Shown: positions 7,668-31,303 of the stretch, one piece after another | Layout of the letters: each line of letters begins with the position of its first letter | Numbering within the stretch: position 1 is the first letter of the stretch | From: an uncultured Actinomycetes bacterium | GTDB taxonomy: Bacteria; Actinomycetota; Actinomycetes; S36-B12; CAIYMF01 | Length of the DNA: 32,000 bases | Assembly: GCA_963843975.1 (NCBI GenBank) | Contig: CAWJMG010000003.1 | Location: 360,001-392,000, forward strand | Direction: 5' to 3' | Made by a program: the position numbers and the translations under genes | Notes under the pieces: generated by a model | Databases searched by the model: none | What the model was told of the DNA's origin: nothing | Seen by the model: only the letters and a program-made list of their open reading frames with translations

Positions 7668-9079
<1,412 letters not shown>

Positions 9080-9083
<4 letters not shown>

Positions 9084-16673: not shown

Positions 16674-17522
16674 TCAGCGCGGGACGGCGGCCACGGCGCC
16701 GACCAGCGGCCCGCGCGCTGCCACCGCGCCGAGCTCGAGCGCGAGGTCGAGGTCGGCCTGGGTCGCGACGCCGACAGCGAGCACCGACGCGCCTACCTCA
16801 CGGGCGGCGTCGAGCATCCGGCGAGATCCCGCGTCGTCGCGGTGCGGTCTGCCGAGGTCGACCTGCACGTACGCCGGGCGCAGCGAGCCGAGCATCGACT
16901 CGGCCGTGGCCGCGGCCGCCGTGCCGGACACGTCCGCCACGACGAGGTGCCAGCCCCAGCCCACCATCTCCTCGGCCGCGGCCCGCAGGCGCTCGCGGTC
17001 GGCGAAGGAGTCCTCGTGCAGCTCGGCGAAGACGTTGAGGGCGCGGCGTCCGCGCAGCCACGCGACGGCGAGGCGGGGCGGGCAGGCGCCCCCGAAGGTC
17101 TCGGGCTCCGGGGTCAGGTGCAGCTCGCCGGTGAGACCGGAGTCCATCGCGACGTCGAACGCGTGGCAGCGGAAGGCCCAGTCGAGGCGCTCGACGAGGC
17201 CGAGGCTCGAGGCCTGCTCGAGCAGGCTCAGCGTGTCGGCCACCTCGGTGCCGGCCGCGCCCCGACCGACTGCCTTCCAGCCCACGAGGGTGCCGGTCGA
17301 GGGAGTCGGGCCGTCGAGACGACGGATGGGGGAGAAGTCGGGGCCGAGCCGCGACGGCTCGGCGATGAGCTGCTCGACCTGCTCGCGGACGCGGCGGTTG
17401 CGGTCGAGGCCAGCAGACAGGACCTCGGACGGGCGCTGCCGGGCGGAGCCGGACGTCGGCAGCGGCGGCGTTCCGCGGCCGGGCAGGCCGGAGGGCGTCC
17501 GCGCAGGCGGCGTCAGTGTCAC
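16674..17522 (-). CDS. degenerate EAL-domain-like protein
   Basis: The 282-aa ORF has blocks collinear with EAL domains. FSPI corresponds to FQPI. VGWKAVGRG is in place of EALxR. VFAELHE corresponds to lEitE. VVADVSGT is in place of DDFGtG. VQVD is in place of KiD. LAVGVA is in place of AEGVE. ARG is in place of QG. Confidence 0.55.
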   Translation of the reverse strand: MTLTPPARTPSGLPGRGTPPLPTSGSARQRPSEVLSAGLDRNRRVREQVEQLIAEPSRLGPDFSPIRRLDGPTPSTGTLVGWKAVGRGAAGTEVADTLSLLEQASSLGLVERLDWAFRCHAFDVAMDSGLTGELHLTPEPETFGGACPPRLAVAWLRGRRALNVFAELHEDSFADRERLRAAAEEMVGWGWHLVVADVSGTAAAATAESMLGSLRPAYVQVDLGRPHRDDAGSRRMLDAAREVGASVLAVGVATQADLDLALELGAVAARGPLVGAVAAVPR

Positions 17523-17648
17523 AGTGAAGTCGTCGGCACGATCGGCGCCGTCTTGAGCGCATCACGGGGCACGGAGCGGTACGTTCCGGCTGCAGGCGGC
17601 AACGGCGCCGCCGACGCGTCCTCGGACGCGTGCGCCAAGGAGGAACGC

Positions 17649-18059
17649 ATGGGTGGCATCGGGAGCCCGATCGTCGTCGGGTACGTCGAGACGCCGGAGG
17701 GCAAGGCGGCGCTCGATCGCGCCGTGATCGAGGCCCAGCAGCGCGGCGCGACCCTGGTCGTCATCAACTCCCAGAAGGGCGGCTGGAGCCTCAGCCCCGA
17801 GCACGCCGTCGAGGTCGACGACGAGATGAACGCTCTGCACGCGCGCCTGCACGAGATCGGCGTCGCGCACGAGGTGCGCCAGCTCGTGCGCGGCAGCGAC
17901 CCGGCCGACGACCTCATCGCCGTGGCGGACGAGGTCGACGCCGACCTCATCGTCATCGGCCTGCGTCGCCGCACGCCCGTCGGCAAGCTCATCCTCGGCA
18001 GCAACAGCCAGACGATCCTGCTCGACGCCAGCTGCCCCGTCCTGGCCGTCAAGGCCTGA
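17649..18059 (+). CDS. universal stress protein (UspA family)
   Basis: The ATG at 17649 is preceded by AAGGAGG. The 136-aa product ends with the typical DLIVIGLRRRTPVGKLILGSNSQTILLDASCPVLAVK. Confidence 0.9.
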   Translation: MGGIGSPIVVGYVETPEGKAALDRAVIEAQQRGATLVVINSQKGGWSLSPEHAVEVDDEMNALHARLHEIGVAHEVRQLVRGSDPADDLIAVADEVDADLIVIGLRRRTPVGKLILGSNSQTILLDASCPVLAVKA

Positions 18060-18743: not shown

Positions 18744-18950
18744 GCCGTCGCGGATCCGGTGGTCGGACGCCGGGGAACGCCCGGCCGCCGTCGGCTCGTC
18801 GTACCTGCGCGGCGCCCCGCACCCCGCCGGTCAGGGGGAATGCCGGGGACGTGTCACAATGTTCACCGGACGCCCCTTGCGCTCCGCCTCACCTCGCACG
18901 CCCCGGTGACCCCGGGGAGCGTGCCCGCCCGCCCGACGAGAGGTTTGTTC

Positions 18951-20420
<1,470 letters not shown>

Positions 20421-20534
20421 CGTCGGATCCGCCAGTGCGGGAGGCCGGACACCCTGACGGGTCCGGATCGGCCGGCGCCCGGTACCGAGTAGCGGTCAGA
20501 GCAGGCGTCCCGCCGGACCGGCATCGTCGTCGGG

Positions 20535-21161
20535 TTACCCGCTCGGCAAGCGCCACATGGCCACAGCGATCCACGACAGCCCGAGCGCGAGCAGCAGCCC
20601 GAAGGCGGCTGTTCCGACCTGGCCCGCGACAGGGGGCAGGAACTCGGCGACGAAGAAGACGAACAAGAAACCGGCCATCGCGGCGAGGACGACCAGCGCG
20701 GCGGGTCGTGGCAGCACGTCGGCGCGGTAGGTGGCGACGGCCGTGAGCAGCAGACCCAGCGTCAACGCGATGCCCAGGGCGAAGACGATCGGATGCTCCC
20801 CGATCGGTCCGTTCTGATCGGGGTGCAGCAGGGGCGCAGCCGAGACGAGCACCGGGAGCAGGAGCCCCAGCTCGAGCAGCACATGGCCGACGAGACCCAG
20901 GGACCCGCTGGGCGAGAGCTGCAGCGCGTACATCGCGGGCAGCGCGAGTAGCAGCAACGCCGACGAGGTCAGCACGAGAGCGGCGACGCCGGGGGAGAGC
21001 GTTGCCTCGACGACGGGATGCACCGACAGGAGCACGAGGGCGACGCCGAGGGTGATCGCGCCGGCGAGCAGAAGCAGTCCGGCCCAGTGGTAGACGTTCA
21101 GCGATTCGGTGAGCACGGCATCACCCCTCCTTCGTACCAGGTCCCGGTTCGTCAGCTTCAT
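20535..21161 (-). CDS. hypothetical multi-pass membrane protein (last gene of hemerythrin operon)
   Basis: The 208-aa ORF is almost entirely hydrophobic helices. Its ATG overlaps the upstream stop (ATGA at 21158-21161). Confidence 0.7.
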   Translation of the reverse strand: MKLTNRDLVRRRGDAVLTESLNVYHWAGLLLLAGAITLGVALVLLSVHPVVEATLSPGVAALVLTSSALLLLALPAMYALQLSPSGSLGLVGHVLLELGLLLPVLVSAAPLLHPDQNGPIGEHPIVFALGIALTLGLLLTAVATYRADVLPRPAALVVLAAMAGFLFVFFVAEFLPPVAGQVGTAAFGLLLALGLSWIAVAMWRLPSG

Positions 21162-22420
21162 GAGGGCTTCCCGGGCTTTTCGACGGGCCGGGAGGTGGCC
21201 ACCCCCGTGCGGCGGCTCGACCCCGACACCATCTCGGGTTGAGGGGGCGACGTCGTCGCTGGACCGAGGTCGTGCACGGCGGCGACCTCACCGAGGGCGG
21301 CGAGGTCCTCGACGAGAGAGGTCGTGCGATCCCTGTGCGGGGGGACCGCGAGCGAGATCAGAACAGCCCACCACCGAGCGCACGTGAGCACCTCGAACGA
21401 CTGGATGATCCGGGTGCCGCCTGCGGACGGCTCGAGGGCGAACGACCACTCGGTGCTGTCGCGCCCTACCCCACCCCGGGTCCGCCAGGCGATCCGGCGA
21501 TCCGGCTCGACGGTCGTGATGAGGCACGGGCGGCGCCAGCGGAACACGCCCGCGCGGGACCGGCCTTCGAATCGAGCGCCGGGGACAGCGTCGTGCGCAC
21601 CATCGAGCCACCGCGCGCCGACGGCCTCGTGGCTCCACTCACCTACACGTGTTGGGTCGGCGAGCACAGCCCACACCTGCGGCGGGGTCGCGGCGACCTC
21701 GACGCTGACCGTTCCGTGAGTGGCCAGGGGGAAGCCGCCGGCCCCGTCGATTCCGAAGCCGGAAGGTCGAGCGCCCCACCGTCGACGGGCCAGCCGGCGA
21801 TATCTGCAGGCAAGCCCGCGCACCAGCACCGAGCGCGGGAAGTCGGGGACGAGCCGATCGACGAGCGCGGCGTCCGAGGCGCTCAGGCCGTCGACGAGCC
21901 AGCCCTCGACCATGCCGAGCCGCAGCAGCGATCGCCCCTGGACGAACTGCTCCCGTACGAACGCCGCCCAGTCCTGCTCCGTGAGCGTCGCGGTCACCAG
22001 GGGCATCAGCTCGATCTCCTCGCGCCGCAGGTACGGCAGGAGGGTCCCCTCGAGCCGGTCCAGGGCATCGACGACCGGTCCTGCAGAAGCGCCTCGGCTG
22101 AACTCGACCGCTGCTTGTTCGACCGCCTTCATGAGCGAGGGCATGGCGCGGAGGTCGCCCTCCGAGGGCCCCAGCGACGCTGCGGCGTCAGGCATCCTGG
22201 CGCGGACGCGGGGCCACAGCTCTCGATCCTCGCCGCGCAGGTGCTCCGCGAGGAGCTCCATCAGCCAGACGAGGTGGGCGCCCACCGCGACCCGCTGGCG
22301 GGGGCGCAGGGCAGCCTCCGCCGACAGCAGGTCGTGCGCGCGAGCGAGGTCGCGACGCAGGGCGCTGTGGACGACCTCCATGATCCGCGTGTCGGCTCGC
22401 GCCTCCGTCGGGCCGGTCAT
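21158..22420 (-). CDS. hemerythrin-domain / SRPBCC-domain fusion protein
   Basis: The ORF 21158..22714 was trimmed to the ATG at 22420 (MTGPTEARADTRIMEVVHSALRRDLARA...), giving 420 aa. The N-terminal half aligns with the stand-alone hemerythrin at 24062..24751. The C-terminal half (PPQVWAVLADPTRVGEWSHEAVGARWLDG...GGTRIIQSFEV) aligns with the stand-alone SRPBCC at 22887..23399. Confidence 0.8.
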   Translation of the reverse strand: MTGPTEARADTRIMEVVHSALRRDLARAHDLLSAEAALRPRQRVAVGAHLVWLMELLAEHLRGEDRELWPRVRARMPDAAASLGPSEGDLRAMPSLMKAVEQAAVEFSRGASAGPVVDALDRLEGTLLPYLRREEIELMPLVTATLTEQDWAAFVREQFVQGRSLLRLGMVEGWLVDGLSASDAALVDRLVPDFPRSVLVRGLACRYRRLARRRWGARPSGFGIDGAGGFPLATHGTVSVEVAATPPQVWAVLADPTRVGEWSHEAVGARWLDGAHDAVPGARFEGRSRAGVFRWRRPCLITTVEPDRRIAWRTRGGVGRDSTEWSFALEPSAGGTRIIQSFEVLTCARWWAVLISLAVPPHRDRTTSLVEDLAALGEVAAVHDLGPATTSPPQPEMVSGSSRRTGVATSRPVEKPGKPS

Positions 22421-22890
22421 TCGACGAGCCCTTCGCTCGGGCCCGGGCGTGACCGGTCCGATCCTCCGGACAGGAGACTCAGCCGGGCGACCGGGATGGG
22501 GCGGTGCGCCTTGCGCGCGTACTTCGCCACCTCGGGCGCTCGCGCGAGGATCACGTCGTTCCACATGCGATCCCGCTCGCCGCCGACGAGTTCGCTGGGG
22601 ATCACGCGCGACGTCTGAGCTCCGATCTGGATCTCGGCGACCTGGGCGCGGCGCAGGTTCTCGAACCAGTCGGGATCCCGGGGGGATCCCGACCCTGTGC
22701 CCCAGACGATCCACCCGTCGTCCCAGGGGAGGTAGCGCACGCAGGTGGAGCGTGGGATGCCGGTGCGTCGTCCCGGGACGGTGATCAGGAGCACGGTCAC
22801 ACCCGATCTGCCCGACGACAACCGACCGTCAAGGCGTCGGTACATCCAGACGCCGAGGCGGTTGCTGGCCCGGGTGGCGCGCCGCGTCAT
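22417..22890 (-). CDS. Ddn-type deazaflavin (F420H2)-dependent nitroreductase-family oxidoreductase
   Basis: The ORF was trimmed to the ATG at 22890, giving 157 aa. The segments LLITVPGRRTGIPRSTCVRYL...GSGSPRDPDWFENLRRAQ...ERDRMWNDV...AHRPIPVARL match the F420H2-dependent quinone reductase fold family. ATGA overlaps occur at both ends. Confidence 0.85.
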   Translation of the reverse strand: MTRRATRASNRLGVWMYRRLDGRLSSGRSGVTVLLITVPGRRTGIPRSTCVRYLPWDDGWIVWGTGSGSPRDPDWFENLRRAQVAEIQIGAQTSRVIPSELVGGERDRMWNDVILARAPEVAKYARKAHRPIPVARLSLLSGGSDRSRPGPSEGLVE

Positions 22891-23399
22891 GGGAGATCCG
22901 GTGCGCTCGGAGCGGCGTGCTGGCTCGAGCGGGACGTCCTCGCCACCTCGCCGAGCCGCTGCAGATCGGCGGCGAGGGCCGCGGTGCGGTCCTGATGAGT
23001 CGGGACCAGCCTGACGTACAGGGGTTCGAGGAGCGGGGCACTGCGGACGACGGCGAACTCCTGCACGATCCTGGTGCCTCCCGCCAAGGCGTCGAGCCGT
23101 AGCCGCCAGAGGGTGCTGTCCGGGAACAGTGCTGTCGGGACGACGCGCCACGCCAGCTCGTGCGGAGGTTCGACCGCGGTGATCTCGCAGAGGCGTCCCC
23201 ACCGCACCCACCCAGCCCGGTTGCGGCCGCGGAAACGGACTCCCGGAGCCGCGGCCGTGGCTCCGCCGAGCCAACGCACGTCGACGCACTCGTGGCTCCA
23301 CTCTCCCGTGCGCGTGGGGTCGCAGACGACGCTCCAGACGTCGTCGATCGCCACCGGCACCACGATCTCGGTGCGCCCCGTCCTCTGCACCTGCGCCAC
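22887..23399 (-). CDS. SRPBCC (START/polyketide-cyclase-like) family protein
   Basis: The 170-aa ORF starts at a GTG with AGGAGG 5 nt upstream. It contains VWSVVCDPTRTGEWSHECVDVRWLGG...GGTRIVQEFAV. Confidence 0.8.
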   Translation of the reverse strand: MAQVQRTGRTEIVVPVAIDDVWSVVCDPTRTGEWSHECVDVRWLGGATAAAPGVRFRGRNRAGWVRWGRLCEITAVEPPHELAWRVVPTALFPDSTLWRLRLDALAGGTRIVQEFAVVRSAPLLEPLYVRLVPTHQDRTAALAADLQRLGEVARTSRSSQHAAPSAPDLP

Positions 23400-23423
23400 G
23401 ACGGCCTCCTCGCGCCGGTAGTG

Positions 23424-24065
23424 CTAGCTGTTGGTCGAGCGCAGCCGACGGGATATCTCCTCCGCGACCCACTCTTCGTAGTCGTCGACACGCCATCCGC
23501 GCAGATCGGTCAGCAGCCGGAATATCTCAACGCTCATCAGCGCCCAGAGCGCATCGACGACCTCGGCATCCACCGGTCGTCCGGTAACCAGCTCGACTCC
23601 CTGCTGGGTGTTCAGCCGGCGGTCCTCCTCGGCCTTCGCGAGTCGCAGCGCCAGCGCTGGTTCGCCTGCCGCGCCTTGGCGCAGGGCGACGTGCAAGCCG
23701 GCCGTCGAGACATGGATCCGCGTGACGAGGCGGGCGGCTTGCCGAACCCGCTCGTCGAAGGTGCCCTGCGCCAGGGCGGCGAACTCGGGCCGATCCGCCA
23801 GAGGCACCGGAGCGTCGTCACCGACCACACTCACGTCTAGTGCGGCTACCAGGAGGTCCGGCTTCGACCCGAACCCGGCGTAGACGGTCTCCACCGCTAC
23901 CCCGGCCTCGCGTGCGACGTCGCGCATGCCCGTGGACGCCCAGCCGCGCTCCGCGAACAGCCGCGTCGCCGCCTCGAGCACTGCCGCGCGCGTTTGCGCG
24001 GCCTGCTCGGCACGCCGGGGCGACCGGTAGGCGCGGGTCCGTCCGGCGGTGACGTCGGACGTCAT
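23424..24065 (-). CDS. TetR/AcrR-family transcriptional regulator
   Basis: The ORF was trimmed to the ATG at 24065 (MTSDVTAGR...). The N-terminal HTH is RAAVLEAATRLFAERGWASTGMRDVAREAGVAVETVYAGFGSKPDLL. The start overlaps the hemerythrin stop (ATGA at 24062-24065). Confidence 0.9.
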   Translation of the reverse strand: MTSDVTAGRTRAYRSPRRAEQAAQTRAAVLEAATRLFAERGWASTGMRDVAREAGVAVETVYAGFGSKPDLLVAALDVSVVGDDAPVPLADRPEFAALAQGTFDERVRQAARLVTRIHVSTAGLHVALRQGAAGEPALALRLAKAEEDRRLNTQQGVELVTGRPVDAEVVDALWALMSVEIFRLLTDLRGWRVDDYEEWVAEEISRRLRSTNS

Positions 24066-24751
24066 CGAGCCACCGCGTGCGTCGACGGAACCACCGGGGA
24101 CCAGCACCCCGACGCACGACGCCGGTACACCCCGGCGAAGCCGTGGACGAGGACGAGACGAGGGATGAACCCGACGAGGTGGACCACGACGTCGCGGCCT
24201 TCAGGGTCCAGATCGTCCAGCAGCCAGTGCCCTTCGAGCGCGAGCTGCTTGGTGGAATTGGGCGCGACGTTGTGCGCCTGCTCGATGGCCTCCCACTCGC
24301 GCCGGGTGAGGCTGGCGGACACCACCGGCATCGCGTCAGCGACCTCGCGCTGGAGGTGCGGGGCGAGCACGACGTCCAGCGCCTCCATCGAGTCGGAGAG
24401 TGCGAGGCGAGCGGAGTCGTCGGTCGTCGAGGCGTAGAGGCGCGCTGCCAGCGTGACGGCGTCCACGGCAGGCGCGATGTGCGCGTGGTCCGCCTCGAGC
24501 GAGGCGACGAGCTCGGCGGCGTCCGGGTTGCGCGCGACGAGCGCCGGCCAGAGCCCCGTGTCCTCGCTCATGTGGTGGGCGTGCAGGAACTCCATCATCC
24601 ACACGAGGTGCTCGCCGAGAGCCCGCCGTTGCTCCCCGGTCGGCGGCCTCGGGGCTGCCAGGACGTCGCGAGCACGTGCGAGGTCCCGCAGGAGAGCGCG
24701 GTGGACGATCGCCATCATCCGGGTGTCGGCCGGGCCGTCGAGCTCGCTCAT
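24062..24751 (-). CDS. hemerythrin (HHE cation-binding) domain protein
   Basis: The ORF was trimmed to the ATG at 24751, preceded by GGAGG, giving 229 aa. The full H...HxxxE...H...HxxxE pattern is present: IVHRAL, HHMSE, EADHAHI, PHLQRE. Confidence 0.85.
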   Translation of the reverse strand: MSELDGPADTRMMAIVHRALLRDLARARDVLAAPRPPTGEQRRALGEHLVWMMEFLHAHHMSEDTGLWPALVARNPDAAELVASLEADHAHIAPAVDAVTLAARLYASTTDDSARLALSDSMEALDVVLAPHLQREVADAMPVVSASLTRREWEAIEQAHNVAPNSTKQLALEGHWLLDDLDPEGRDVVVHLVGFIPRLVLVHGFAGVYRRRASGCWSPVVPSTHAVAR

Positions 24752-24777
24752 GGCTGCCTCCTGTCGGCGTCGAGCCC

Positions 24778-24816
24778 ACAGTAGAACCAACGACGATTGA
24801 TCACAAGACCGTTCTA
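24778..24816 (-). promoter_or_regulatory. candidate promoter (TTGTGA-N17-TACTGT) embedded in an inverted repeat TAGAAC-N23-GTTCTA (candidate TetR operator)
   Basis: The minus strand reads TAGAACggtcTTGTGAtcaatcgtcgttgGTTCTACTGTgggctcgacgccgacaGGAGGcagccATG. The -35 is at 24806-24801 and the -10 at 24783-24778. The IR arms are at 24782-24787 and 24811-24816. This is a locally AT-richer patch just upstream of the hemerythrin gene. Confidence 0.4.
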
Positions 24817-25313
24817 GCGAAGTTAGGTCGACCGGCCTCACGTGGGCGGACTCGCGTTCCCGTCGGTCGCGAAGCGCCGACAGGGAGTACGCCGTGCCTG
24901 CGCCACCCAGCTGGTCGCAGGTGCTGCGCGAGCAGGTCGCCCGACCCCTCGGGCCCACCTGCACGGGAGGCCGCATCACCCCGCCTGGTGCGGATCGGGC
25001 CGGCGCTCGGCCCGAGGACGGCCAGCACCCGTCGATGCCCGTCCGGGTCCTCGGGCAGGTCCAGCTTCCTCATGAGGTGCGTACGTGCGCCTCCACCGTG
25101 GGCTCGCTGCGCGGTCCTCTCTGTTGGTGTCCTACTGGTCGATCGACGTAGGTGCACGACACGATGACAGTGGTCGCCTGGACCAGCGCGGAAGAAGGAA
25201 GGTGCTGCTGCGGGCTACCACGGGTTCGGGCCCATCGACCACGCACTGGATGGCCAGCGCAGCTGCCGACGACTGCGTCACTGCCGCTGCGGCGCCGTGG
25301 CCATACCCTCCTG

Positions 25314-25413
25314 CTCAGTCCAAGGTATTGCATCGCACAGCGCTCGCCCGCCTCGTGCGTGAAGTGCCCACACGCACAGCGCTCAGGCGTTCCTGGTGCG
25401 CGACTACCTCGAC
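25314..25413. repeat. copy A of a conserved non-coding element (61-nt core interrupted by a 39-nt internal duplication)
   Basis: Positions 25314-25345 plus 25385-25413 align without gaps to 26739-26799. By hand count, 50 of 61 positions are identical. The 12-mer CGCACAGCGCTC occurs twice here (25334 and 25373), 39 nt apart. Confidence 0.6.
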
Positions 25414-25586
25414 TAGCCGACCCGCCTGAACCGTCACAGGACCCGTTGCGCTGCAACGGGTCTTGTGCGTTTCGGGCGTCGGCGTCGGACGGGCACACGC
25501 TCCTGGGTGACGTGAGGGGCTGCCCGACGTGCTGGCGTTGTGGAACGATGCGGGCTTCACGTGAGCGGTCTGGGAGGTACTGGACC

Positions 25587-26612
25587 ATGACGGAGGCACC
25601 CTCCACCGACATCCCGATCGGGATCGGTTTCACGCCGTTCGAAGACCGCCTCGACGTCATCGAGCGCGTCACACAGCACGCCGAGCGCGGAGGCCTGGCA
25701 TTCGTGTCCGTGGCCGAGGCCATGAGTCTGGCGGCGCCGCTCGTGCTTGCCCGTCTTGCGGCCGTCACGAGCGGGATCGGGCTGACGACGGGGGTGCTGT
25801 CGGTGTGGGGGCGAACGCCGGCCACCTTGGCCATGACCGCGGCGGAGCTGCAGCGGCAGTCGGGCGGACGCTTCGTCCTCGGTCTGGGAGCGGGGACCAC
25901 CCCCATCGCTGAAGGCTTCCACGGGGAGCGATGGGAATCGCCCCTGGGACGCCTGCGGTCGACGTGCCTCGCCGTCACGGCGCTGCTGCGCGGTGAGCGG
26001 CTTCCAGACCCCTCGGGAGACGCGAGGCCGCTCGCTCTGGCGAAGCCGCCGGACACGATCGTGCCGCTGGCGCTCGCGGCCATCACAGATCCCAGCATCC
26101 GGCTTGCCGGTGAGCTCGCCGACCAGTGGCTGCCCTTCCTGCTGCCGCCTTCGGCTCTGGACGATGGCCGAGAGCTGCTGAGGATGTCTGCCGCACGGCA
26201 TGGGCGGTCGACGATGCCGACCGTGACGGCTGCGATCCCCGTCGCCGTCGCGGAGGACGAAGCGAGCGCAGCGACCATCGCCGCCCGCTGGCTCGTGACG
26301 TACTGCACGCGCATGGGGCCCGTCTACCCGCGCATCCTGCGCGAGAACGGCTACGGCCCCGAGATCGACGCGCTGCTCGAGGCGAGCGGCGACCCTCGCA
26401 CTCCCGTTCTGCCGGCTGCCGCCGAACGGCTGGCACGCGACGTGCTCGTCTTCGGCACCCACGGCGACACGCGCGAGGTCCTCGCCGGCTGGCAGCAGCA
26501 CGCCGACCAGCTCGCCCTGGTCGTCCCGTTCGCCACCGAGCTCGACGATCTGCTGGCACTCGTCGACGCCGTGGTGACGACGAGACCCGGTGTCGGCCGC
26601 CCGCACTCGTGA
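25587..26612 (+). CDS. LLM-class flavin-dependent oxidoreductase
   Basis: The ORF 25152..26612 was trimmed to the ATG at 25587, with GGGAGG upstream. The product is MTEAPSTDIPIGIGFTPFEDRLDVIERVTQHAERGGLAFVSVAEAMS...RFVLGLGAGT..., a luciferase-like monooxygenase pattern. Confidence 0.85.
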   Translation: MTEAPSTDIPIGIGFTPFEDRLDVIERVTQHAERGGLAFVSVAEAMSLAAPLVLARLAAVTSGIGLTTGVLSVWGRTPATLAMTAAELQRQSGGRFVLGLGAGTTPIAEGFHGERWESPLGRLRSTCLAVTALLRGERLPDPSGDARPLALAKPPDTIVPLALAAITDPSIRLAGELADQWLPFLLPPSALDDGRELLRMSAARHGRSTMPTVTAAIPVAVAEDEASAATIAARWLVTYCTRMGPVYPRILRENGYGPEIDALLEASGDPRTPVLPAAAERLARDVLVFGTHGDTREVLAGWQQHADQLALVVPFATELDDLLALVDAVVTTRPGVGRPHS

Positions 26613-28582: not shown

Positions 28583-28705
28583 GTCTACGTCCCGAGGAGG
28601 TTTCGAGACGTGCCGAGAGCGGTACTCCTGCGCCATGAGCCCCCCGTATGCGCTGGACCCAGCCTCGCGTGCGCCATGCGCAACCCGCGCGCTCGGGCCG
28701 GGAGC

Positions 28706-29773
28706 ATGAGCCGCATCGCTGCGGCGCGGGGGGTCGTGGCCCGGCATGGCTACCCCCAGGAGGAGATAACCCGAGCCTTCTCCGAGCTCGTGAACCCGGA
28801 CGGCTCTCGGAGTCGGGCCGTACGGTCGATCCACGCGTCGGCTGGCGTGGAGCACCGATTCCTCGCCCTCCCGCTGGACGAGTACGCGTCCCTCGACGGC
28901 TTCGGCGCGAGCAACGACGCCTTCATCCGCGTCGGGCTCGATCTCGCCGAGGAGGCTGTCCTCGCGACGCTCGAGCAGGCAGGGCTGACGCCCGGTGATG
29001 TCGACCTCGTGGTCTCGACCTCGGTCACCGGTATCGCAGCACCATCCCTGGAGGCTCGGCTGGCCTCGCGCATCGGGCTCCGCCCCGACGTGAAGCGCAT
29101 CCCGATCTTCGGCCTGGGATGCGTCGCCGGAGCGGCCGGCATCGCTCGGATCCACGACTATCTCGCCGGCCACCCCGACGGCGTGGCGGTGCTTCTCTCG
29201 GTCGAGCTCTGCTCGCTCACCGTGCAGCGCGACGACAGCTCGATGGCCAACATCGTGGCGAGCGCCCTGTTCGGCGACGGCGCCGCGGCAGTGGTGATGG
29301 TCGGAGACGGACGCTCTGGCGATGCCACCGGTCCGGAGGTCGTCGCGTCGCGCAGCCGGCTCTACCCCCACAGCGAGCGGACGATGGGGTGGGACATCGG
29401 CAGCTCCGGCTTCCGCATCGTGCTGTCGGCGTCCGTCCCCGACCTGGTGACGACCTATCTCGGGGACGACGTCGCCGACCTGCTCGCCGACCACGACCTC
29501 AAGGTCGGCGACGTCACCACGTGGGTGTGCCACCCCGGCGGGCCCAAGGTGCTCCTCGCGATGGAGGAGGCCCTCGACCTGCGCGACGGGCAGCTCGGCG
29601 TGACCTGGAGGTCGCTGGCCCGCGTGGGCAACCTGTCGTCCGCCTCCGTGCTCCACGTTCTCGCGGACACCCTCGCGGCGGCGCGGTCGCAGCCTCCCGA
29701 GGAGGGAGCCCCTGGGGTCTTGCTCGCGATGGGGCCCGGCTTCTGCTCCGAGGTCGTGCTGCTGCGATGGTGA
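28706..29773 (+). CDS. type III polyketide synthase (chalcone/stilbene synthase family)
   Basis: The ORF 28610..29773 was trimmed to the ATG at 28706; the ATG at 28676 is also possible. The catalytic triad contexts are FGLGCVAGAAG (Cys), VCHPGGPKV (His) and VGNLSSASV (Asn). Confidence 0.92.
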   Translation: MSRIAAARGVVARHGYPQEEITRAFSELVNPDGSRSRAVRSIHASAGVEHRFLALPLDEYASLDGFGASNDAFIRVGLDLAEEAVLATLEQAGLTPGDVDLVVSTSVTGIAAPSLEARLASRIGLRPDVKRIPIFGLGCVAGAAGIARIHDYLAGHPDGVAVLLSVELCSLTVQRDDSSMANIVASALFGDGAAAVVMVGDGRSGDATGPEVVASRSRLYPHSERTMGWDIGSSGFRIVLSASVPDLVTTYLGDDVADLLADHDLKVGDVTTWVCHPGGPKVLLAMEEALDLRDGQLGVTWRSLARVGNLSSASVLHVLADTLAAARSQPPEEGAPGVLLAMGPGFCSEVVLLRW

Positions 29774-29825: not shown

Positions 29826-30287
29826 GTGGTCTCCCGTCGCAACCTCGCGTGGAGCTACGCGCGCGGTGGCGTCGAGTACGGCGCCGGGCACTACCCGTTC
29901 ATGGTCGTGCTGCACGTCGGGCTCCTCGTCGGCTGCCTCGTCGAGGTACAGGTGGCGGACCGCCACCCCCTGCCCCTCCTCGCCTCGGTGATGGTGGCGC
30001 TCGTCCTGGCTTCGCAAGCGCTGCGCTGGTGGTGCATCACCACGCTCGGCCCCCGGTGGAACACGCGAGTCGTGGTGGTCCCGGACCTCGCCCCCGTGAC
30101 CTCGGGTCCCTATCGCTACCTGCGGCACCCCAACTACGTGGCGGTCGTCGTCGAGGGGTTTGCACTCCCGCTCGCGGGCTCCGCGTGGGTCACCGCTCTG
30201 GTCTTCACTGTGCTGAACGCGATGCTCCTGACGGTACGGATCCGGGAGGAGGACGCCGCCCTCGCCACCCTGGTGCCCAGCCCGTGA
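29826..30287 (+). CDS. isoprenylcysteine carboxyl methyltransferase (ICMT)-family membrane methyltransferase; intact ORF portion (see frameshift finding)
   Basis: The 153-aa ORF contains GPYRYLRHPNYVAVVVEGFALPL and multiple TM helices. Its stop overlaps the next start (GTGA at 30284-30287). A likely original N-terminus (MVTAYTVLVLLVALERLAE, from the ATG at 29767) lies in another frame. Confidence 0.8.
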   Translation: MVSRRNLAWSYARGGVEYGAGHYPFMVVLHVGLLVGCLVEVQVADRHPLPLLASVMVALVLASQALRWWCITTLGPRWNTRVVVVPDLAPVTSGPYRYLRHPNYVAVVVEGFALPLAGSAWVTALVFTVLNAMLLTVRIREEDAALATLVPSP

Positions 30288-31303
30288 TCGACCTCGTCGT
30301 GGTGGGTGGCGGTCCCGTCGGCCTGATGGTTGCCGTGCACGCACGGCTGGCGGGGCTGGAGGTCGTGGTCCTCGAGCAGCGAGCCTCCGCGCCCGACAAG
30401 GCGTGCGGCGAAGGGCTGATGCCGGACGCCCTCCGCCGGCTGAACGCCGTCGGGGTCGACCCCGAGGGCGCCGCACTCGCAGGGATCCGGTACGTCGACG
30501 GTGGGCGCGACGTGCGTGCCCGGTTCTCGGCCGGCCCCGGCCGCGGCGTCCGCCGTACGACTCTGGTGGACGCGCTCGAAGCTCGCGCGCGGGACCTCGG
30601 GGCACAGCTGGTCACCGGCACCGTCGGCTCGCTGGCTCAGGTCGGCACGCACGTCGTCGTCTCGGGGATCCAGGCCCGCTACGCGGTGGCCGCGGACGGC
30701 CTGCACTCGTCCGTGCGCACCCAGCTCGGGCTGCAGCGGCCGGCCCGGGGAGCTCGTCGTTACGGAGTACGCCAGCACTTCCGCGCGGAGCCGTGGAGCG
30801 ACCTGGTCGAGGTGCACTGGACGCGTGAGGCCGAGGTCTACGTGACGCCCGTGGCCCACGACCTCGTCGGGGTCGCCGCGCTCGGCACGCGGCCCCTGTC
30901 GTTCGACGCAGCGATGAGTGCGACACCCGCGGTCGGCGAGCGGCTCGAGGGAGCGGTCGCGGCGAGCCGGGTGCTGGGCGCCGGCCCGCTGCTGCAGCAG
31001 ACCTCGGCGCGGGTGCGCGGGCGGGTTCTGCTCGTGGGCGATGCCGCCGGCTACGTGGACGCCCTCACCGGGGAGGGTCTGCGCCTCGGCTTCGCCGGAG
31101 CGGAGGCGGTGGTCGCCGCCGTGCTGGCCGACGATCCCGGCAGCTATGAGCGGGAGTGGCTGCGGCTGACCCGGTCGTACCGGCTCCTGACCCACGGACT
31201 CCTCGCCGCCGCGACACGCCCCCGGCTCCGACGCGGGATCGTCCCCGCGGCTGCCGGCTGGCCGTGGGCGTTCGGCCGCGTTGTGGACGCGCTCGCCGGC
31301 TGA
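30284..31303 (+). CDS. FAD-dependent oxidoreductase / aromatic hydroxylase-like (geranylgeranyl-reductase-type fold)
   Basis: The ORF 29849..31303 was trimmed to the GTG at 30284. It has the dinucleotide-binding motif DLVVVGGGPVGL, AADGLHSSVR and LVGDAAGYVDALTGEGL. Confidence 0.85.
   Translation: MIDLVVVGGGPVGLMVAVHARLAGLEVVVLEQRASAPDKACGEGLMPDALRRLNAVGVDPEGAALAGIRYVDGGRDVRARFSAGPGRGVRRTTLVDALEARARDLGAQLVTGTVGSLAQVGTHVVVSGIQARYAVAADGLHSSVRTQLGLQRPARGARRYGVRQHFRAEPWSDLVEVHWTREAEVYVTPVAHDLVGVAALGTRPLSFDAAMSATPAVGERLEGAVAASRVLGAGPLLQQTSARVRGRVLLVGDAAGYVDALTGEGLRLGFAGAEAVVAAVLADDPGSYEREWLRLTRSYRLLTHGLLAAATRPRLRRGIVPAAAGWPWAFGRVVDALAG

What the first reader, a model, noticed from the sequence alone, without database searches (positions are those of the whole stretch)
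20535..24816. Six-gene, start/stop-overlapped operon with a duplicated hemerythrin + SRPBCC module around a Ddn-type F420H2 reductase
The minus-strand order is: hemerythrin (229 aa), TetR (213 aa), SRPBCC (170 aa), Ddn-type deazaflavin-dependent reductase (157 aa), hemerythrin-SRPBCC fusion (420 aa), multi-pass membrane protein (208 aa). Four of the five junctions are 4-nt ATGA overlaps, at 24062-24065, 22887-22890, 22417-22420 and 21158-21161. The fifth junction is a 24-nt gap carrying AGGAGG.

The two hemerythrin domains align end to end (ADTRMMAIVHRALLRDLARA vs ADTRIMEVVHSALRRDLARA; HLVWMMEFL vs HLVWLMELL). The two SRPBCC domains also align (DPTRTGEWSHECVDVRWLGG vs DPTRVGEWSHEAVGARWLDG; GGTRIVQEF vs GGTRIIQSF; DRTAALAADLQRLGEVA vs DRTTSLVEDLAALGEVA). 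So the same two-domain module appears twice, once split by the regulator gene and once fused.

I know of no characterised system with this composition. The parts suggest O2/NO/iron sensing, hydrophobic ligand binding and F420H2-driven quinone or nitro reduction under TetR control. This is the best candidate in the window for an undescribed functional unit.
Basis: partly seen in the sequence, partly recalled or inferred. Interest (0 to 1): 0.7.

Follow-up and report, generated by a model that had tools for sequence, protein, structure and literature searches.

The report
Doubled TetR–hemerythrin–SRPBCC cassette operon
One operon of a high-GC actinobacterium holds two old, diverged versions of a widespread but unstudied gene cassette (a TetR repressor, an iron-binding hemerythrin domain and a lipid-binding SRPBCC domain) plus a reductase and a membrane protein; the six-gene layout is a local accident, but the cassette and its conserved DNA switch are real and uncharacterised.

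Summary
The physical description holds. Six co-directional minus-strand genes lie at 20535-24751, all domain calls pass curated HMM cut-offs, and the hemerythrin (Hr) and SRPBCC parts each occur twice (40% and 50% identity).

The six-gene unit is not conserved. What recurs across Actinomycetota is a small cassette in permuted forms:
- TetR followed by a fused Hr~SRPBCC gene, in about 74 of 80 genomes sampled.
- Hr, then TetR, then SRPBCC as separate genes, in at least five lineages including this one.

Both forms are preceded by the same ~35-bp palindrome, which overlaps a promoter.

The window joins one split cassette to the remains of a fused one:
- The Ddn-type reductase follows the cassette in only a minority of relatives.
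- The membrane protein follows only the closest fused homologues.
- The fused copy has lost three otherwise invariant iron-ligand histidines.
- Strains about 95% identical lack the fused gene through a clean in-frame 1197-bp deletion.

Best reading: a TetR-autoregulated hemerythrin/SRPBCC stress or ligand-handling module, duplicated here by juxtaposition, with lineage-specific add-ons. Its biochemistry is unknown, and I found no paper describing it. Interest is moderate.

The parts
24779..24817 (-). Conserved palindromic operator-promoter element. Outer arms are TAGAAC 24811-24816 and GTTCTA 24782-24787; -35-like TTGTGA is at 24801-24806, followed by a 17-nt spacer. The -10-like hexamer TACTGT is at 24778-24783, so it overlaps the element and ends one base outside the listed range.
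   Evidence: A position-weight matrix built from about 65 distinct sites scores 43.5 bits here, and this is the only hit in the 32-kb window. The same element precedes the cassette in about 73 of 80 genomes and in the split-cassette loci. In TetR-first loci the start codon lies 6-7 nt after the -10 hexamer in 61 of 72 loci, as expected for leaderless mRNAs, which fixes the promoter register.
24757..24762 (-). Shine-Dalgarno AGGAGG in a roughly 20-nt leader, 5 nt before the Hr1 ATG
   Evidence: Read directly from the sequence. Split-cassette loci in other genomes also have a 20-30-nt leader with GGAGG.
24062..24751 (-). Hr1: standalone hemerythrin-like (HHE) protein, 229 aa. It is a four-helix core plus a helical tail and keeps all conserved diiron ligands.
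   Evidence: PF01814 E 1e-11. There are 495 homologues at E<=1e-20, almost all 229 aa. H17/H59/H60/E63/H89/H132/E136 are retained, each invariant or nearly so in the 112-sequence alignment A3. AF2 model pLDDT 88.7; best folds are PF0695, NMB1532 and the FBXL5 hemerythrin domain.
23424..24065 (-). TetR-family repressor, 213 aa, whose start overlaps the Hr1 stop (ATGA)
   Evidence: PF00440 E 1.8e-15. It is 43-59% identical to the TetR found directly upstream of the fusion gene in about 74 of 80 genomes. The N-terminal arm R11/Y13/S15/R18 and the HTH are invariant across 82 family members.
22887..23399 (-). Standalone SRPBCC (Polyketide_cyc2) protein, 170 aa, starting 24 nt after TetR with AGGAGG in the gap
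   Evidence: PF10604 E 9.5e-12. It is 50-64% identical to the C-terminal halves of fusion proteins in other genomes. The same position is occupied by a 160-171-aa SRPBCC in L094, L097, L099 and L122.
22417..22890 (-). FDOR-A / Ddn-family F420H2-dependent reductase, 157 aa, with ATGA overlaps at both ends. It is an accessory gene, not a core cassette gene.
   Evidence: PF04075 E 8.8e-21 and TIGR00026. Best solved relative is MSMEG_3356 (3H96, E 8e-14); Ddn itself (3R5R) scores 5e-7. The same SRPBCC-Ddn linkage is seen in 4 of 40 orthologue loci (L114, L121, L122, L138) and is absent from the rest.
21158..22420 (-). Hr~SRPBCC fusion protein, 420 aa. It belongs to a divergent clade; its Hr domain is degenerate (L61, L90 and Y130 where the family has His) while its SRPBCC domain is conserved.
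   Evidence: PF01814 plus PF10604. Positions 61/90/130 are His in 117/117, 117/117 and 116/117 fused homologues and in 118/118 standalone homologues. Hr core identity to its own clade is 55.8%, against 78.2% within the clade. SRPBCC identity is 68.7% against 69.6%. GC3 is 0.86, so the gene still looks coding.
21194..22390 (-). 1197-bp segment (399 codons of the fusion gene; the ends are ambiguous by one base) that is absent from strains about 95% identical
   Evidence: blastn of L089, L091 and L092 against the window. The junction sequence leaves a 21-codon in-frame mini-ORF that keeps both ATGA overlaps.
20535..21116 (-). Six-TM membrane protein. The probable start is the GTG at 21116 (193 aa); the alternative ATG at 21161 gives 208 aa. 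It is an accessory gene linked to the fused-cassette clade.
   Evidence: No Pfam or NCBIfam hit. Six hydrophobic segments. It is 75-77% identical to the gene downstream of the fusion in L082, L087 and L088. The family has 411 members at E<=1e-5, mostly 187-193 aa, and a 65% homologue sits in an unrelated context.

Best explanation
The locus is a composite operon, probably transcribed from one TetR-controlled promoter. It was assembled from two anciently diverged versions of one widespread actinobacterial cassette, plus two lineage-specific accessory genes.

The cassette:
- It has three components: a TetR repressor, a hemerythrin-like diiron domain with a helical tail, and an SRPBCC ligand-binding domain.
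- The hemerythrin and SRPBCC parts act as one two-domain protein or complex. They occur fused in either order, as adjacent genes, or separated only by the TetR gene.
- The TetR most likely binds the conserved ~35-bp palindrome that covers the -35 and -10 of the cassette's own promoter. It would repress the operon until an inducer releases it (inferred).

The window:
- The split version (Hr1-TetR-SRPBCC) is the intact, canonical copy.
- It carries a Ddn-family F420H2-dependent reductase as a translationally coupled add-on.
- Downstream lies the remnant of a fused-type cassette (fusion plus 6-TM protein) that has lost its own TetR and operator.
- That fusion's hemerythrin domain has lost three iron ligands, and sister strains have deleted the gene. 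It is a redundant, decaying or SRPBCC-only paralogue.

Likely role (inference, low confidence): an inducible module that binds a hydrophobic, redox-active or electrophilic compound in the SRPBCC pocket and acts on it, or on O2, NO or peroxide, at the diiron site. In some lineages F420H2-dependent reduction or DinB/MDMPI-type thiol chemistry assists it.
For: Architecture and evolution (shown):
- TetR lies directly upstream of the fusion on the same strand in about 74 of 80 genomes.
- Hr-TetR-SRPBCC occurs in Petropleomorpha, in Nanopelagicales and in three metagenome lineages.
- No other gene family recurs around the cassette; the maximum is 7 of 89 loci.
- Standalone Hr proteins form one clade nested among fused forms. 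The window's Hr1 is inside that clade, while its fusion sits on a long branch in another clade.
- Reversed SRPBCC~Hr fusions exist, as do adjacent SRPBCC-then-Hr genes on Rhodococcus opacus B4 plasmid pROB01.

Regulation (inferred from conservation):
- One palindrome per locus, always in front of the cassette, with no other hits in about 1.3 Mb of flanking sequence.
- The leaderless register holds in 61 of 72 loci.
- The TetR DNA-binding arm and HTH are invariant.

Operon:
- Overlaps or short gaps at every junction, no internal operator, and only one terminator-like match on this strand (20670-20697, inside the membrane-protein gene), at about the frequency seen in shuffled sequence (0.6 +/- 0.8).

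Decay of the fused copy:
- Three ligand losses.
- Divergence confined to the Hr domain.
- A 1197-bp in-frame deletion in sister strains.

Accessory status:
- Ddn is linked to the cassette in 4 of 40 orthologue loci.
- The membrane protein is linked only in L082, L087 and L088 and is independent elsewhere.

Functional hints:
- Folds resemble TcmN ARO/CYC and PYL receptors for the SRPBCC domain, and FBXL5-type hemerythrin for the Hr domain.
- Fusion partners include MDMPI/DinB.
- The Ddn family is established as quinone/xenobiotic reductases (background knowledge of PF04075).
Against: - There is no transcript, binding or biochemical data, so co-transcription and TetR-operator binding are inferences.
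- The window's operator has perfect outer arms but a degraded inner palindrome. Its TetR has Ser where 96% of the family has Arg-120, so regulation here may differ from the family norm.
- The TetR ligand-binding domain is poorly conserved and lacks Cys or His. That fits badly with a single conserved small-molecule inducer and leaves room for a protein-partner mechanism.
- The fused gene is intact with normal codon bias, so it may still function.
- The tree is neighbour-joining with midpoint rooting, built on the top hits of two queries. The direction of change (fusion to split, or split to fusion) is not settled.
- The proposed chemical role rests on family-level analogies only.
Confidence: 0.6

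Rival explanations
1. All six genes form one dedicated pathway centred on the F420H2-dependent reductase. Two hemerythrin/SRPBCC sensor-carrier pairs would feed or protect a quinone or nitro reduction step at the membrane, under TetR control.
For: - The genes are tightly packed and co-directional with overlapping stops and starts.
- Hr-TetR-SRPBCC-Ddn recurs in L122 and L138, and SRPBCC-Ddn in L114 and L121, with the same 4-nt overlap in L122.
- An F420-type LLM oxidoreductase lies divergently upstream.
Against: - The six-gene order is found only in this strain; 95%-identical strains lack the fusion gene.
- 79 of 80 fusion-bearing genomes have no Ddn within 8 kb, and none has the membrane protein.
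- The nearest split cassette (74% identical) lacks Ddn.
- 36 of 40 Ddn orthologue loci show no cassette gene next to the reductase, though many are short contigs.
- The second hemerythrin has lost three ligands.
Confidence: 0.12
2. The hemerythrin/SRPBCC protein is not an effector. It is the sensor half of a two-protein switch. It would sense O2, NO, iron or redox state at the diiron site and a lipid at the SRPBCC pocket, then bind the TetR to relieve or impose repression. AmtR-GlnK is a precedent for a protein partner controlling a TetR-family regulator, and PYL receptors are a precedent for ligand-gated protein docking. The real output genes could lie elsewhere in the genome.
For: - The three components are inseparable across permutations, and the TetR gene sits between the two domains' genes with translational coupling.
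- The TetR effector domain is weakly conserved while its DNA-binding part is invariant.
- The SRPBCC fold is closest to ligand-gated PYL receptors as well as to cyclases.
- The hemerythrin fold is closest to the FBXL5 iron/O2 sensor.
- No conserved enzyme or pump accompanies the cassette.
Against: - No TetR~Hr or TetR~SRPBCC fusion was seen among the architectures checked.
- Some genomes carry Hr/SRPBCC without the TetR or the operator: L007, L012, L065, L069 and pROB01.
- No second operator was found in any flank, although whole genomes could not be scanned.
Confidence: 0.2
3. The six genes are adjacent by chance. They are separately transcribed, and their adjacency in this strain carries no functional meaning.
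For: The locus is evolutionarily fluid. There is a strain-level deletion, homology to sister strains breaks at about 24934, and the accessory genes differ between lineages.
Against: - Three or four 4-nt overlaps plus a 24-nt gap leave no room for internal promoters.
- The sister-strain deletion preserves both overlaps in frame.
- The core trio is conserved with its operator across classes of Actinomycetota.
Confidence: 0.05

Closest known systems
Mycobacterial hemerythrin-like proteins (Rv2633c; M. kansasii HLP, reported as a nitric oxide peroxidase/catalase; PMC6993866, PMC8913304)
   Same: Both are actinobacterial non-haem diiron four-helix proteins of the HHE/hemerythrin superfamily, implicated in NO and peroxide chemistry.
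   Different: No sequence match to any solved hemerythrin at E<=1; the query in that search was the window's fused protein. The family here has an extra ~80-residue helical tail, is always paired with an SRPBCC domain, and is usually paired with a dedicated TetR. The ligand pattern H-HH..E-H-H..E resembles FBXL5 more than classical hemerythrin.
FBXL5 hemerythrin-like iron/oxygen sensor domain (3U9J, 3V5X) and the HHE proteins PF0695 and NMB1532
   Same: These are the best structural matches to the Hr1 model (probability 0.97-1.0). The ligand spacing is similar, including a ligand at i+1 of the helix-2 His (FBXL5 detail from my own knowledge).
   Different: Foldseek E-values are weak (0.03-0.5) and identity is 12-16%. 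FBXL5 is a eukaryotic F-box protein with an unrelated partner domain.
SRPBCC/Bet v1-fold proteins: TcmN ARO/CYC (2RER), WhiE-ORFVI, PYR/PYL abscisic-acid receptors, MSMEG_5634 (7WA9), Cgl2373 (2M47)
   Same: The C-terminal domain has the helix-grip fold with a hydrophobic pocket (Foldseek E about 1e-6, TM 0.6-0.76 on the target). The closest sequence match is Cgl2373, E 7e-10.
   Different: Identity is 13-20%. There is no polyketide synthase context for the cassette itself. The invariant motif GEWSHE(C) and invariant His/Arg/Asp/Gln positions are not documented for those families, as far as I know.
Ddn / FDOR-A F420H2-dependent reductases (Ddn 3R5R; MSMEG_3356 3H96)
   Same: The 157-aa protein passes PF04075 and TIGR00026 and aligns over its full length to solved FDOR-A enzymes.
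   Different: It is closer to MSMEG_3356 than to Ddn. The substrate is unknown. It has a ~19-residue C-terminal tail that orthologues lack, since their matches end near residue 138.
TetR-family local repressors with palindromic operators, such as KstR (motif TnnAACnnGTTnnA, PMC1995591); long operators bound by two dimers as in QacR (from my own knowledge)
   Same: TetR_N HTH, autoregulatory position, and a palindromic operator overlapping the promoter. The outer half-sites TAGAAC/GTTCTA match the KstR half-site letters.
   Different: The half-sites are 23 nt apart, not 2. A second inner palindrome (TGTATTnAATACA) lies between them. The KstR equivalog model scores 30.7 bits against a cut-off of 280, so this is not KstR.
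Bacterial hemerythrin-domain sensors (DcrH, Bhr-DGC, Bhr-HD-GYP; review PMC9388753)
   Same: A hemerythrin domain is joined to a second domain in one polypeptide, and an O2/redox sensing role is plausible.
   Different: The partner here is an SRPBCC ligand-binding domain, not a known signalling output such as MCP, GGDEF or HD-GYP. Any output would have to pass through the separate TetR.

Membership tests
Hemerythrin / HHE cation-binding domain (PF01814) | Profile match above the Pfam gathering score | tested here: met
   Hr1 scores 45.8 bits and the fusion N-half 31.6 bits, against a cut-off of 25.3.
Hemerythrin / HHE cation-binding domain (PF01814) | Four-helix-bundle fold like solved hemerythrin-like proteins | tested here: met
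   The AF2 model of Hr1 (pLDDT 88.7) has four long helices. The top Foldseek hits are the HHE proteins 3CAX and 2P0N and the FBXL5 Hr domain, at probability 0.97-1.0 but weak E-values of 0.03-0.5.
Hemerythrin / HHE cation-binding domain (PF01814) | Complete set of His/carboxylate diiron ligands | tested here: met
   This row concerns Hr1. It keeps every position that is invariant in 235 homologues: H, HH..E(D), H, H..E.
Hemerythrin / HHE cation-binding domain (PF01814), fused copy 21158-22420 | Complete set of His/carboxylate diiron ligands | tested here: not met
   L61, L90 and Y130 replace His that is present in 117/117, 117/117 and 116/117 fused homologues and in 118/118 standalone homologues.
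Hemerythrin / HHE cation-binding domain (PF01814) | Binds two iron atoms; reacts with O2, NO or H2O2 | not testable with these tools
   This needs metal analysis and spectroscopy of purified protein.
SRPBCC superfamily (Polyketide_cyc2, PF10604) | Profile match above the gathering score | tested here: met
   45.8 bits (standalone) and 52 bits (fusion), against a cut-off of 27.4.
SRPBCC superfamily (Polyketide_cyc2, PF10604) | Helix-grip fold with an internal ligand pocket | tested here: met
   The AF2 model of the canonical family member P0119 (pLDDT 94.1) matches TcmN, WhiE-ORFVI, PYLs and MSMEG_5634. The window's two SRPBCC domains align to it without large gaps. The pocket ligand itself is unknown.
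TetR family of repressors | N-terminal TetR_N helix-turn-helix | tested here: met
   PF00440 scores 56.9 bits against a cut-off of 24. 48 solved TetR proteins match the HTH region at E<=1e-4.
TetR family of repressors | Palindromic operator at or near its own or the adjacent promoter | tested here: met
   A conserved ~35-bp palindrome overlaps the -35 and -10 directly upstream of the cassette in about 85 loci including the window. Binding itself was not shown.
TetR family of repressors | Release from DNA on binding an inducer | not testable with these tools
   This needs EMSA or in vivo reporters. The effector domain is weakly conserved.
FDOR-A / Ddn family (PF04075, TIGR00026) | Profile matches above curated cut-offs and full-length similarity to solved FDOR-A enzymes | tested here: met
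   74.8 bits against a cut-off of 22, and 66.8 against 46.35. 3H96 matches at E 8e-14 over residues 15-137.
FDOR-A / Ddn family (PF04075, TIGR00026) | Uses F420H2; reduces quinones or nitro compounds | not testable with these tools
   The only indirect support is an F420-type LLM oxidoreductase next door. It scores below the curated cut-offs, but all its top hits are F420 LLM families.
   0 of 80 fusion-bearing genomes have it. Strains about 95% identical have five genes. Relatives have two, three or four genes.
TetR + hemerythrin + SRPBCC cassette (defined here) | All three components adjacent on one strand behind the conserved palindrome | tested here: met
   In the window the operator is at 24779-24817, followed by Hr1, TetR and SRPBCC. 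The same layout occurs in L094, L097, L099, L122 and L138. The fused variant occurs in about 74 of 80 genomes.
Known anti-phage defence systems (PADLOC) | Any component matches a defence-system model | tested here: not met
   No hit at E<=0.001 for any of the six proteins.

The most novel reading that the evidence does not exclude
The TetR/hemerythrin/SRPBCC cassette may be a new kind of two-input signal module. The Hr~SRPBCC protein (or the Hr plus SRPBCC complex) would integrate a gas, iron or redox signal at the diiron site with a lipid or quinone signal in the SRPBCC pocket. It would then control the TetR by direct protein contact, making it a protein-gated TetR switch found across Actinomycetota, including Rhodococcus, Nocardia and some Mycobacterium. 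The window would then be a natural experiment: one complete sensor plus a second, iron-blind SRPBCC-only paralogue.
Probability: 0.15. Interest if true: 0.75.

Novelty: new variant of a known kind. Interest (0 to 1): 0.48.

Why it matters
The six-gene layout is a strain-level curiosity. Following it up exposed a compact, uncharacterised cassette found in hundreds of actinobacterial genomes and metagenomes.

What makes the cassette worth study:
- It has a sharply conserved operator-promoter.
- Its two non-regulatory domains are fused in either order, or split, which is a strong sign that they work together.
- Hemerythrin-like proteins matter for NO and peroxide defence in mycobacteria.
- SRPBCC proteins bind lipids, polyketides and hormones, and TetR switches are useful parts for synthetic biology.
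- A module joining all three, with a predicted 35-bp operator and a leaderless promoter, is directly testable in Rhodococcus or Nocardia.

It could reveal a new stress-sensing or detoxification chemistry.

The window also documents how operons are rebuilt. Two diverged cassettes were juxtaposed, one regulator was lost, the metal site decayed in one domain only, and a clean in-frame deletion in sister strains preserved translational coupling.

Tried and rejected
- **Recent tandem duplication as the source of the repeated module: rejected.** The two copies fall in different old clades and are only 40-50% identical.
- **Insertion of the fusion gene in this strain: rejected in favour of deletion in sister strains.** The sister strains keep the first 10 and last 11 codons of the gene, including part of the conserved N-terminal motif.
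- **A relic of a second TetR gene in the Ddn C-terminal tail.** Nucleotide alignment to the TetR-fusion junction of L082 and L087 gave only weak, uninterpretable similarity. No claim is made.
- **Other conserved neighbours of the cassette.** Clustering 1352 flanking ORFs from 89 loci found no family in more than 7 loci.
- **Extra operator copies (a regulon).** None was found in the window or in any flank.
- **Rfam families in 20000-25600:** none.
- **Sigma-70 consensus scan:** no promoter, because the scan is too strict for actinobacterial promoters.
- **PADLOC defence models:** none.
- **NCBIfam equivalogs for Hr, SRPBCC and the membrane protein:** none. The fusion's weak hit to the Rv0910 toxin model (21 bits against a cut-off of 100) was dismissed.
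- **Literature.** No paper holds both 'hemerythrin' and 'SRPBCC', and the papers holding 'hemerythrin', 'polyketide cyclase' and 'TetR' were irrelevant.
- **Organism identity.** It remains an unnamed high-GC actinobacterium with a 2.76-Mb contig.
- **Plasmid search.** It gave only three Rhodococcus opacus plasmids, one of which showed yet another gene order.

Full report
**1. What is in the sequence**

| Gene | Coordinates | Length |
|---|---|---|
| Hr1 (hemerythrin-like) | 24062-24751 | 229 aa |
| TetR | 23424-24065 | 213 aa |
| SRPBCC | 22887-23399 | 170 aa |
| Ddn-like reductase | 22417-22890 | 157 aa |
| Hr-SRPBCC fusion | 21158-22420 | 420 aa |
| Membrane protein | 20535-21161 | 208 aa |

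- Public gene calls for the same genome use identical starts for the first five genes.
- All six show the third-position G+C bias of real genes, 0.83-0.89.
- The ATGA overlaps and the 24-nt AGGAGG-bearing gap are as described.
- Every domain assignment passes its curated threshold: PF01814 twice, PF00440, PF10604 twice, PF04075 and TIGR00026.
- The two hemerythrin parts are 40% identical over 199 residues (E 2e-36). The two SRPBCC parts are 50% identical over 146 residues (E 2e-39).

The membrane protein most likely starts at the GTG at 21116, giving 193 aa after AGGAGG at 21126-21131. Its homologues are 187-193 aa and their similarity begins at residue 13-16. The fourth ATGA overlap is probably not a start/stop junction.

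**2. What recurs elsewhere**

*The fused form*
- The Hr~SRPBCC fusion is a large family. A first search returned 331 proteins with E<=0.001 among the 8000 candidates scored.
- A scan of one genome per species found 327 loci, in Nocardia, Rhodococcus, Prescottella, Mycobacterium, Nocardioides, Pseudonocardiales, Streptosporangiales and many Acidimicrobiia.
- I ran tblastn with the six window proteins against the 80 best loci. A homologue of the window's TetR (43-59% identical) lies immediately upstream on the same strand in about 74 of them.
- A Ddn homologue lies within 8 kb in only one of the 80 (opposite strand, 30% identity). A homologue of the membrane protein lies near none.
- Clustering all flanking ORFs found no other recurrent neighbour; the maximum was 7 of 89 loci.

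*The split form*
- The standalone 229-aa hemerythrin is also a large family of almost constant length, with 495 hits at E<=1e-20.
- Its gene context is Hr, then TetR (4-nt overlap), then a 160-171-aa SRPBCC. This is seen in Petropleomorpha daqingensis, a Nanopelagicales MAG and several metagenome contigs.

*Further arrangements*
- A profile search of 1.84 billion representatives found 274 relatives at E<=1e-30. They include reversed SRPBCC~Hr fusions, and fusions of either domain to MDMPI/DinB domains.
- Rhodococcus opacus B4 plasmid pROB01 has SRPBCC and Hr as adjacent, overlapping genes.

The stable unit is therefore Hr plus SRPBCC, nearly always with a dedicated TetR. The two domains are joined in every possible way, which argues strongly that they act together.

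**3. The regulatory element**

Aligning the upstream regions of all loci shows that it is part of a ~35-bp palindrome with this consensus:

`cTAGAACAGnCTTGTATTgAATACAGnnCTGTTCTA`

- It lies directly in front of the first cassette gene in both gene orders.
- A matrix built from these sites finds exactly one site per locus, always at that position. It finds no other hit in the flanks or in the 32-kb window.
- The element contains a -35-like TTGTAT, a 17-nt spacer and a TAnnnT -10.
- In TetR-first loci the start codon lies 6-7 nt after that hexamer in 61 of 72 cases, and 5-8 nt in 68 of 72. That spacing is expected for leaderless actinobacterial mRNAs and independently fixes the promoter.
- Hr-first loci, including the window, instead have a 20-30-nt leader with GGAGG.

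In the window, -35 is TTGTGA (24801-24806), -10 is TACTGT (24778-24783) and the Shine-Dalgarno sequence is at 24757-24762.

The TetR family has an invariant N-terminal arm (R11, Y13, S15, R18) and HTH but a poorly conserved effector domain. I infer that the TetR binds this palindrome, probably as two dimers given its length, and autoregulates the operon. Binding has not been shown.

The outer half-sites resemble the KstR motif TnnAACnnGTTnnA (PMC1995591). The spacing differs, 23 nt against 2, and the KstR model is far below its threshold.

**4. How this particular locus came about**

- A neighbour-joining tree places standalone hemerythrins in one clade nested among fused forms. The window's Hr1 is inside that clade. 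The window's fusion sits on a long branch in a separate clade, P0002-P0013.
- Hr1, TetR and SRPBCC are each more similar to mainstream cassettes of other classes (for example L006: 57%, 59% and 58%) than the window's own fusion is (43%).
- The closest fused homologues (62-65% identical; L082, L087, L088) have TetR, then the fusion, then a 193-aa protein that is 75-77% identical to the window's membrane protein.
- More distant homologues of that membrane protein sit in unrelated contexts.
- Orthologues of the Ddn-like gene (54-73% identical) follow an Hr-TetR-SRPBCC or SRPBCC gene in 4 of 40 metagenome loci and not in the others. The nearest split cassette (74% identical Hr) lacks it.

The window is therefore best read as a split cassette with a Ddn add-on, followed by a fused-type cassette that has lost its own TetR and operator.

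**5. The fused copy is decaying**

- At three positions the family has His in 117/117, 117/117 and 116/117 fused members and in 118/118 standalone members. The window's fusion has Leu, Leu and Tyr there. Hr1 keeps all ligands.
- Divergence is confined to the hemerythrin part:

| Region | Window fusion vs its clade | Within the clade |
|---|---|---|
| Hr core | 55.8% | 78.2% |
| SRPBCC | 68.7% | 69.6% |

- Contigs about 95% identical to the window (L089-L092) carry Hr1-TetR-SRPBCC-Ddn-membrane protein but lack 1197 bp of the fusion gene.
- The junction keeps the first 10 and last 11 codons in frame, together with both ATGA overlaps.

This is a deletion in those strains, and the fusion gene is dispensable.

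**6. Structure and nearest known relatives**

- A canonical fusion (P0119) models with pLDDT 94.1. It has four long helices, five short helices and a helix-grip domain.
- The helix-grip domain matches TcmN ARO/CYC, WhiE-ORFVI, PYL abscisic-acid receptors and MSMEG_5634.
- The Hr1 model (pLDDT 88.7) matches the HHE proteins PF0695 and NMB1532 and the FBXL5 hemerythrin domain. Probability is high but E-values are weak.
- By sequence, the SRPBCC part is closest to Cgl2373 (2M47), and the window's fused protein matched no solved hemerythrin at E<=1.
- The reductase is closest to MSMEG_3356 (3H96) and more distant from Ddn itself.
- No defence-system model and no Rfam family matches.
- No paper in the library mentions hemerythrin together with SRPBCC.

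**7. Mechanism**

*Shown*
- The composition, conservation and permutations of the cassette.
- The conserved promoter-embedded palindrome.
- The accessory status of the reductase and the membrane protein.
- The degeneration and strain-level loss of the fused copy.

*Inferred, with my estimate of likelihood*
- TetR autoregulation through the palindrome: about 0.75.
- Co-transcription of the whole cluster: about 0.8.
- Physical cooperation of Hr and SRPBCC: about 0.85.

*Speculative: the chemistry*
- My preferred reading (about 0.3) is an inducible module that captures a hydrophobic, redox-active or electrophilic compound in the SRPBCC pocket. It would then act on that compound, or on O2, NO or peroxide, at the diiron centre. 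The occasional partners, an F420H2-dependent quinone/xenobiotic reductase and DinB/MDMPI thiol-dependent domains, point the same way.
- The main rival (about 0.2) is that Hr/SRPBCC is a protein co-sensor that gates the TetR. That would explain the weakly conserved TetR effector domain and the absence of any conserved output enzyme.

**8. Verdict**

The finding is real as an observation. Its interpretation as a novel six-gene functional unit is not supported. The underlying TetR-hemerythrin-SRPBCC cassette is an uncharacterised, widespread and experimentally tractable module. I file it as a new variant of a known kind, a TetR-controlled local operon built from known domain families. Interest is moderate.

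Noticed in passing
window 24817-25586: About 0.8 kb lies between the operator and the divergent LLM oxidoreductase gene with no codon-position G+C periodicity and no called gene. Homology to the ~95%-identical sister contigs stops at about 24934, so a second strain-level rearrangement boundary lies just upstream of the operon.
   Followed up: partly
window 25587-26612 (+): A luciferase-like monooxygenase whose best NCBIfam hits are all F420-dependent LLM families, although below their curated cut-offs. It is divergent from the operon. A Bac_luciferase gene also lies next to the split cassette of Petropleomorpha (L094).
   Followed up: partly
window 28610-29773 (+) and 29849-31303 (+): A type III polyketide synthase (chalcone/stilbene synthase domains; best NCBIfam hit DpgA-like, below cut-off) is followed by an FAD-dependent geranylgeranyl-reductase/UbiH-like protein. 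This could be a small alkylresorcinol- or quinone-type biosynthetic pair about 4 kb from the operon.
   Followed up: no
L091 1798-1863; corresponds to window 22420-22391 joined to 21194-21158: In sister strains the 1197-bp deletion leaves a 21-codon mini-ORF (MTGPTEARADSRPVEKPGKPS). Its start overlaps the Ddn stop, and its stop overlaps the upstream ATG of the membrane-protein gene. Translational coupling may therefore have been preserved.
   Followed up: yes
window 23706-23708 (TetR codon 120): The window's TetR has Ser at a position that is Arg in 96% of 82 family members. Its operator has perfect outer arms but a degraded inner palindrome (TGTGATCAATCGT against TGTATTnAATACA).
   Followed up: partly
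proteins P0406, P0435, P0401, P0409, P0408: Alternative architectures of the same domains exist: reversed SRPBCC~hemerythrin fusions, MDMPI_N+hemerythrin, and SRPBCC+MDMPI_N+MDMPI_C (DinB superfamily). Their gene contexts could not be looked up.
   Followed up: partly
L144 (Rhodococcus opacus B4 plasmid pROB01) 4186-7897: The order is SRPBCC, DUF5602, SRPBCC, hemerythrin (4-nt overlap), then a TPP-binding protein, near a P450 and an 'ester cyclase'. There is no adjacent cassette-type TetR. This is a further arrangement on a catabolic megaplasmid.
   Followed up: no
L002, L082-L088 upstream of TetR: In the clade that contains the window's fusion, the right half of the operator is degenerate (for example CTAGAACACTCTTGTATCGAATCTTCGAAACGCCTACCT), while the -10 and the leaderless spacing are kept.
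   Followed up: no
window 20535-21116 and proteins P0249-P0368: The 6-TM protein belongs to a well-conserved family (60-80% identity, 187-193 aa) with no Pfam model. Among the 120 hits listed, the only organism names come from Propionicimonas and Candidatus Limnocylindrales (Chloroflexota) MAGs.
   Followed up: partly
window 18759-20420 (+): A principal sigma-70-type factor (regions 1.2, 2, 3 and 4), convergent with the operon. Its N-terminal region is long, about 250 residues, and rich in Ala, Lys and Pro. The true start was not determined.
   Followed up: no
window 1170-5111 (+), 7668-9083 (-), 16842-18059 (+): An HrpA-like DEAH helicase with DUF3418, an amidohydrolase and a universal stress protein domain. 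These are ordinary chromosomal context.
   Followed up: no
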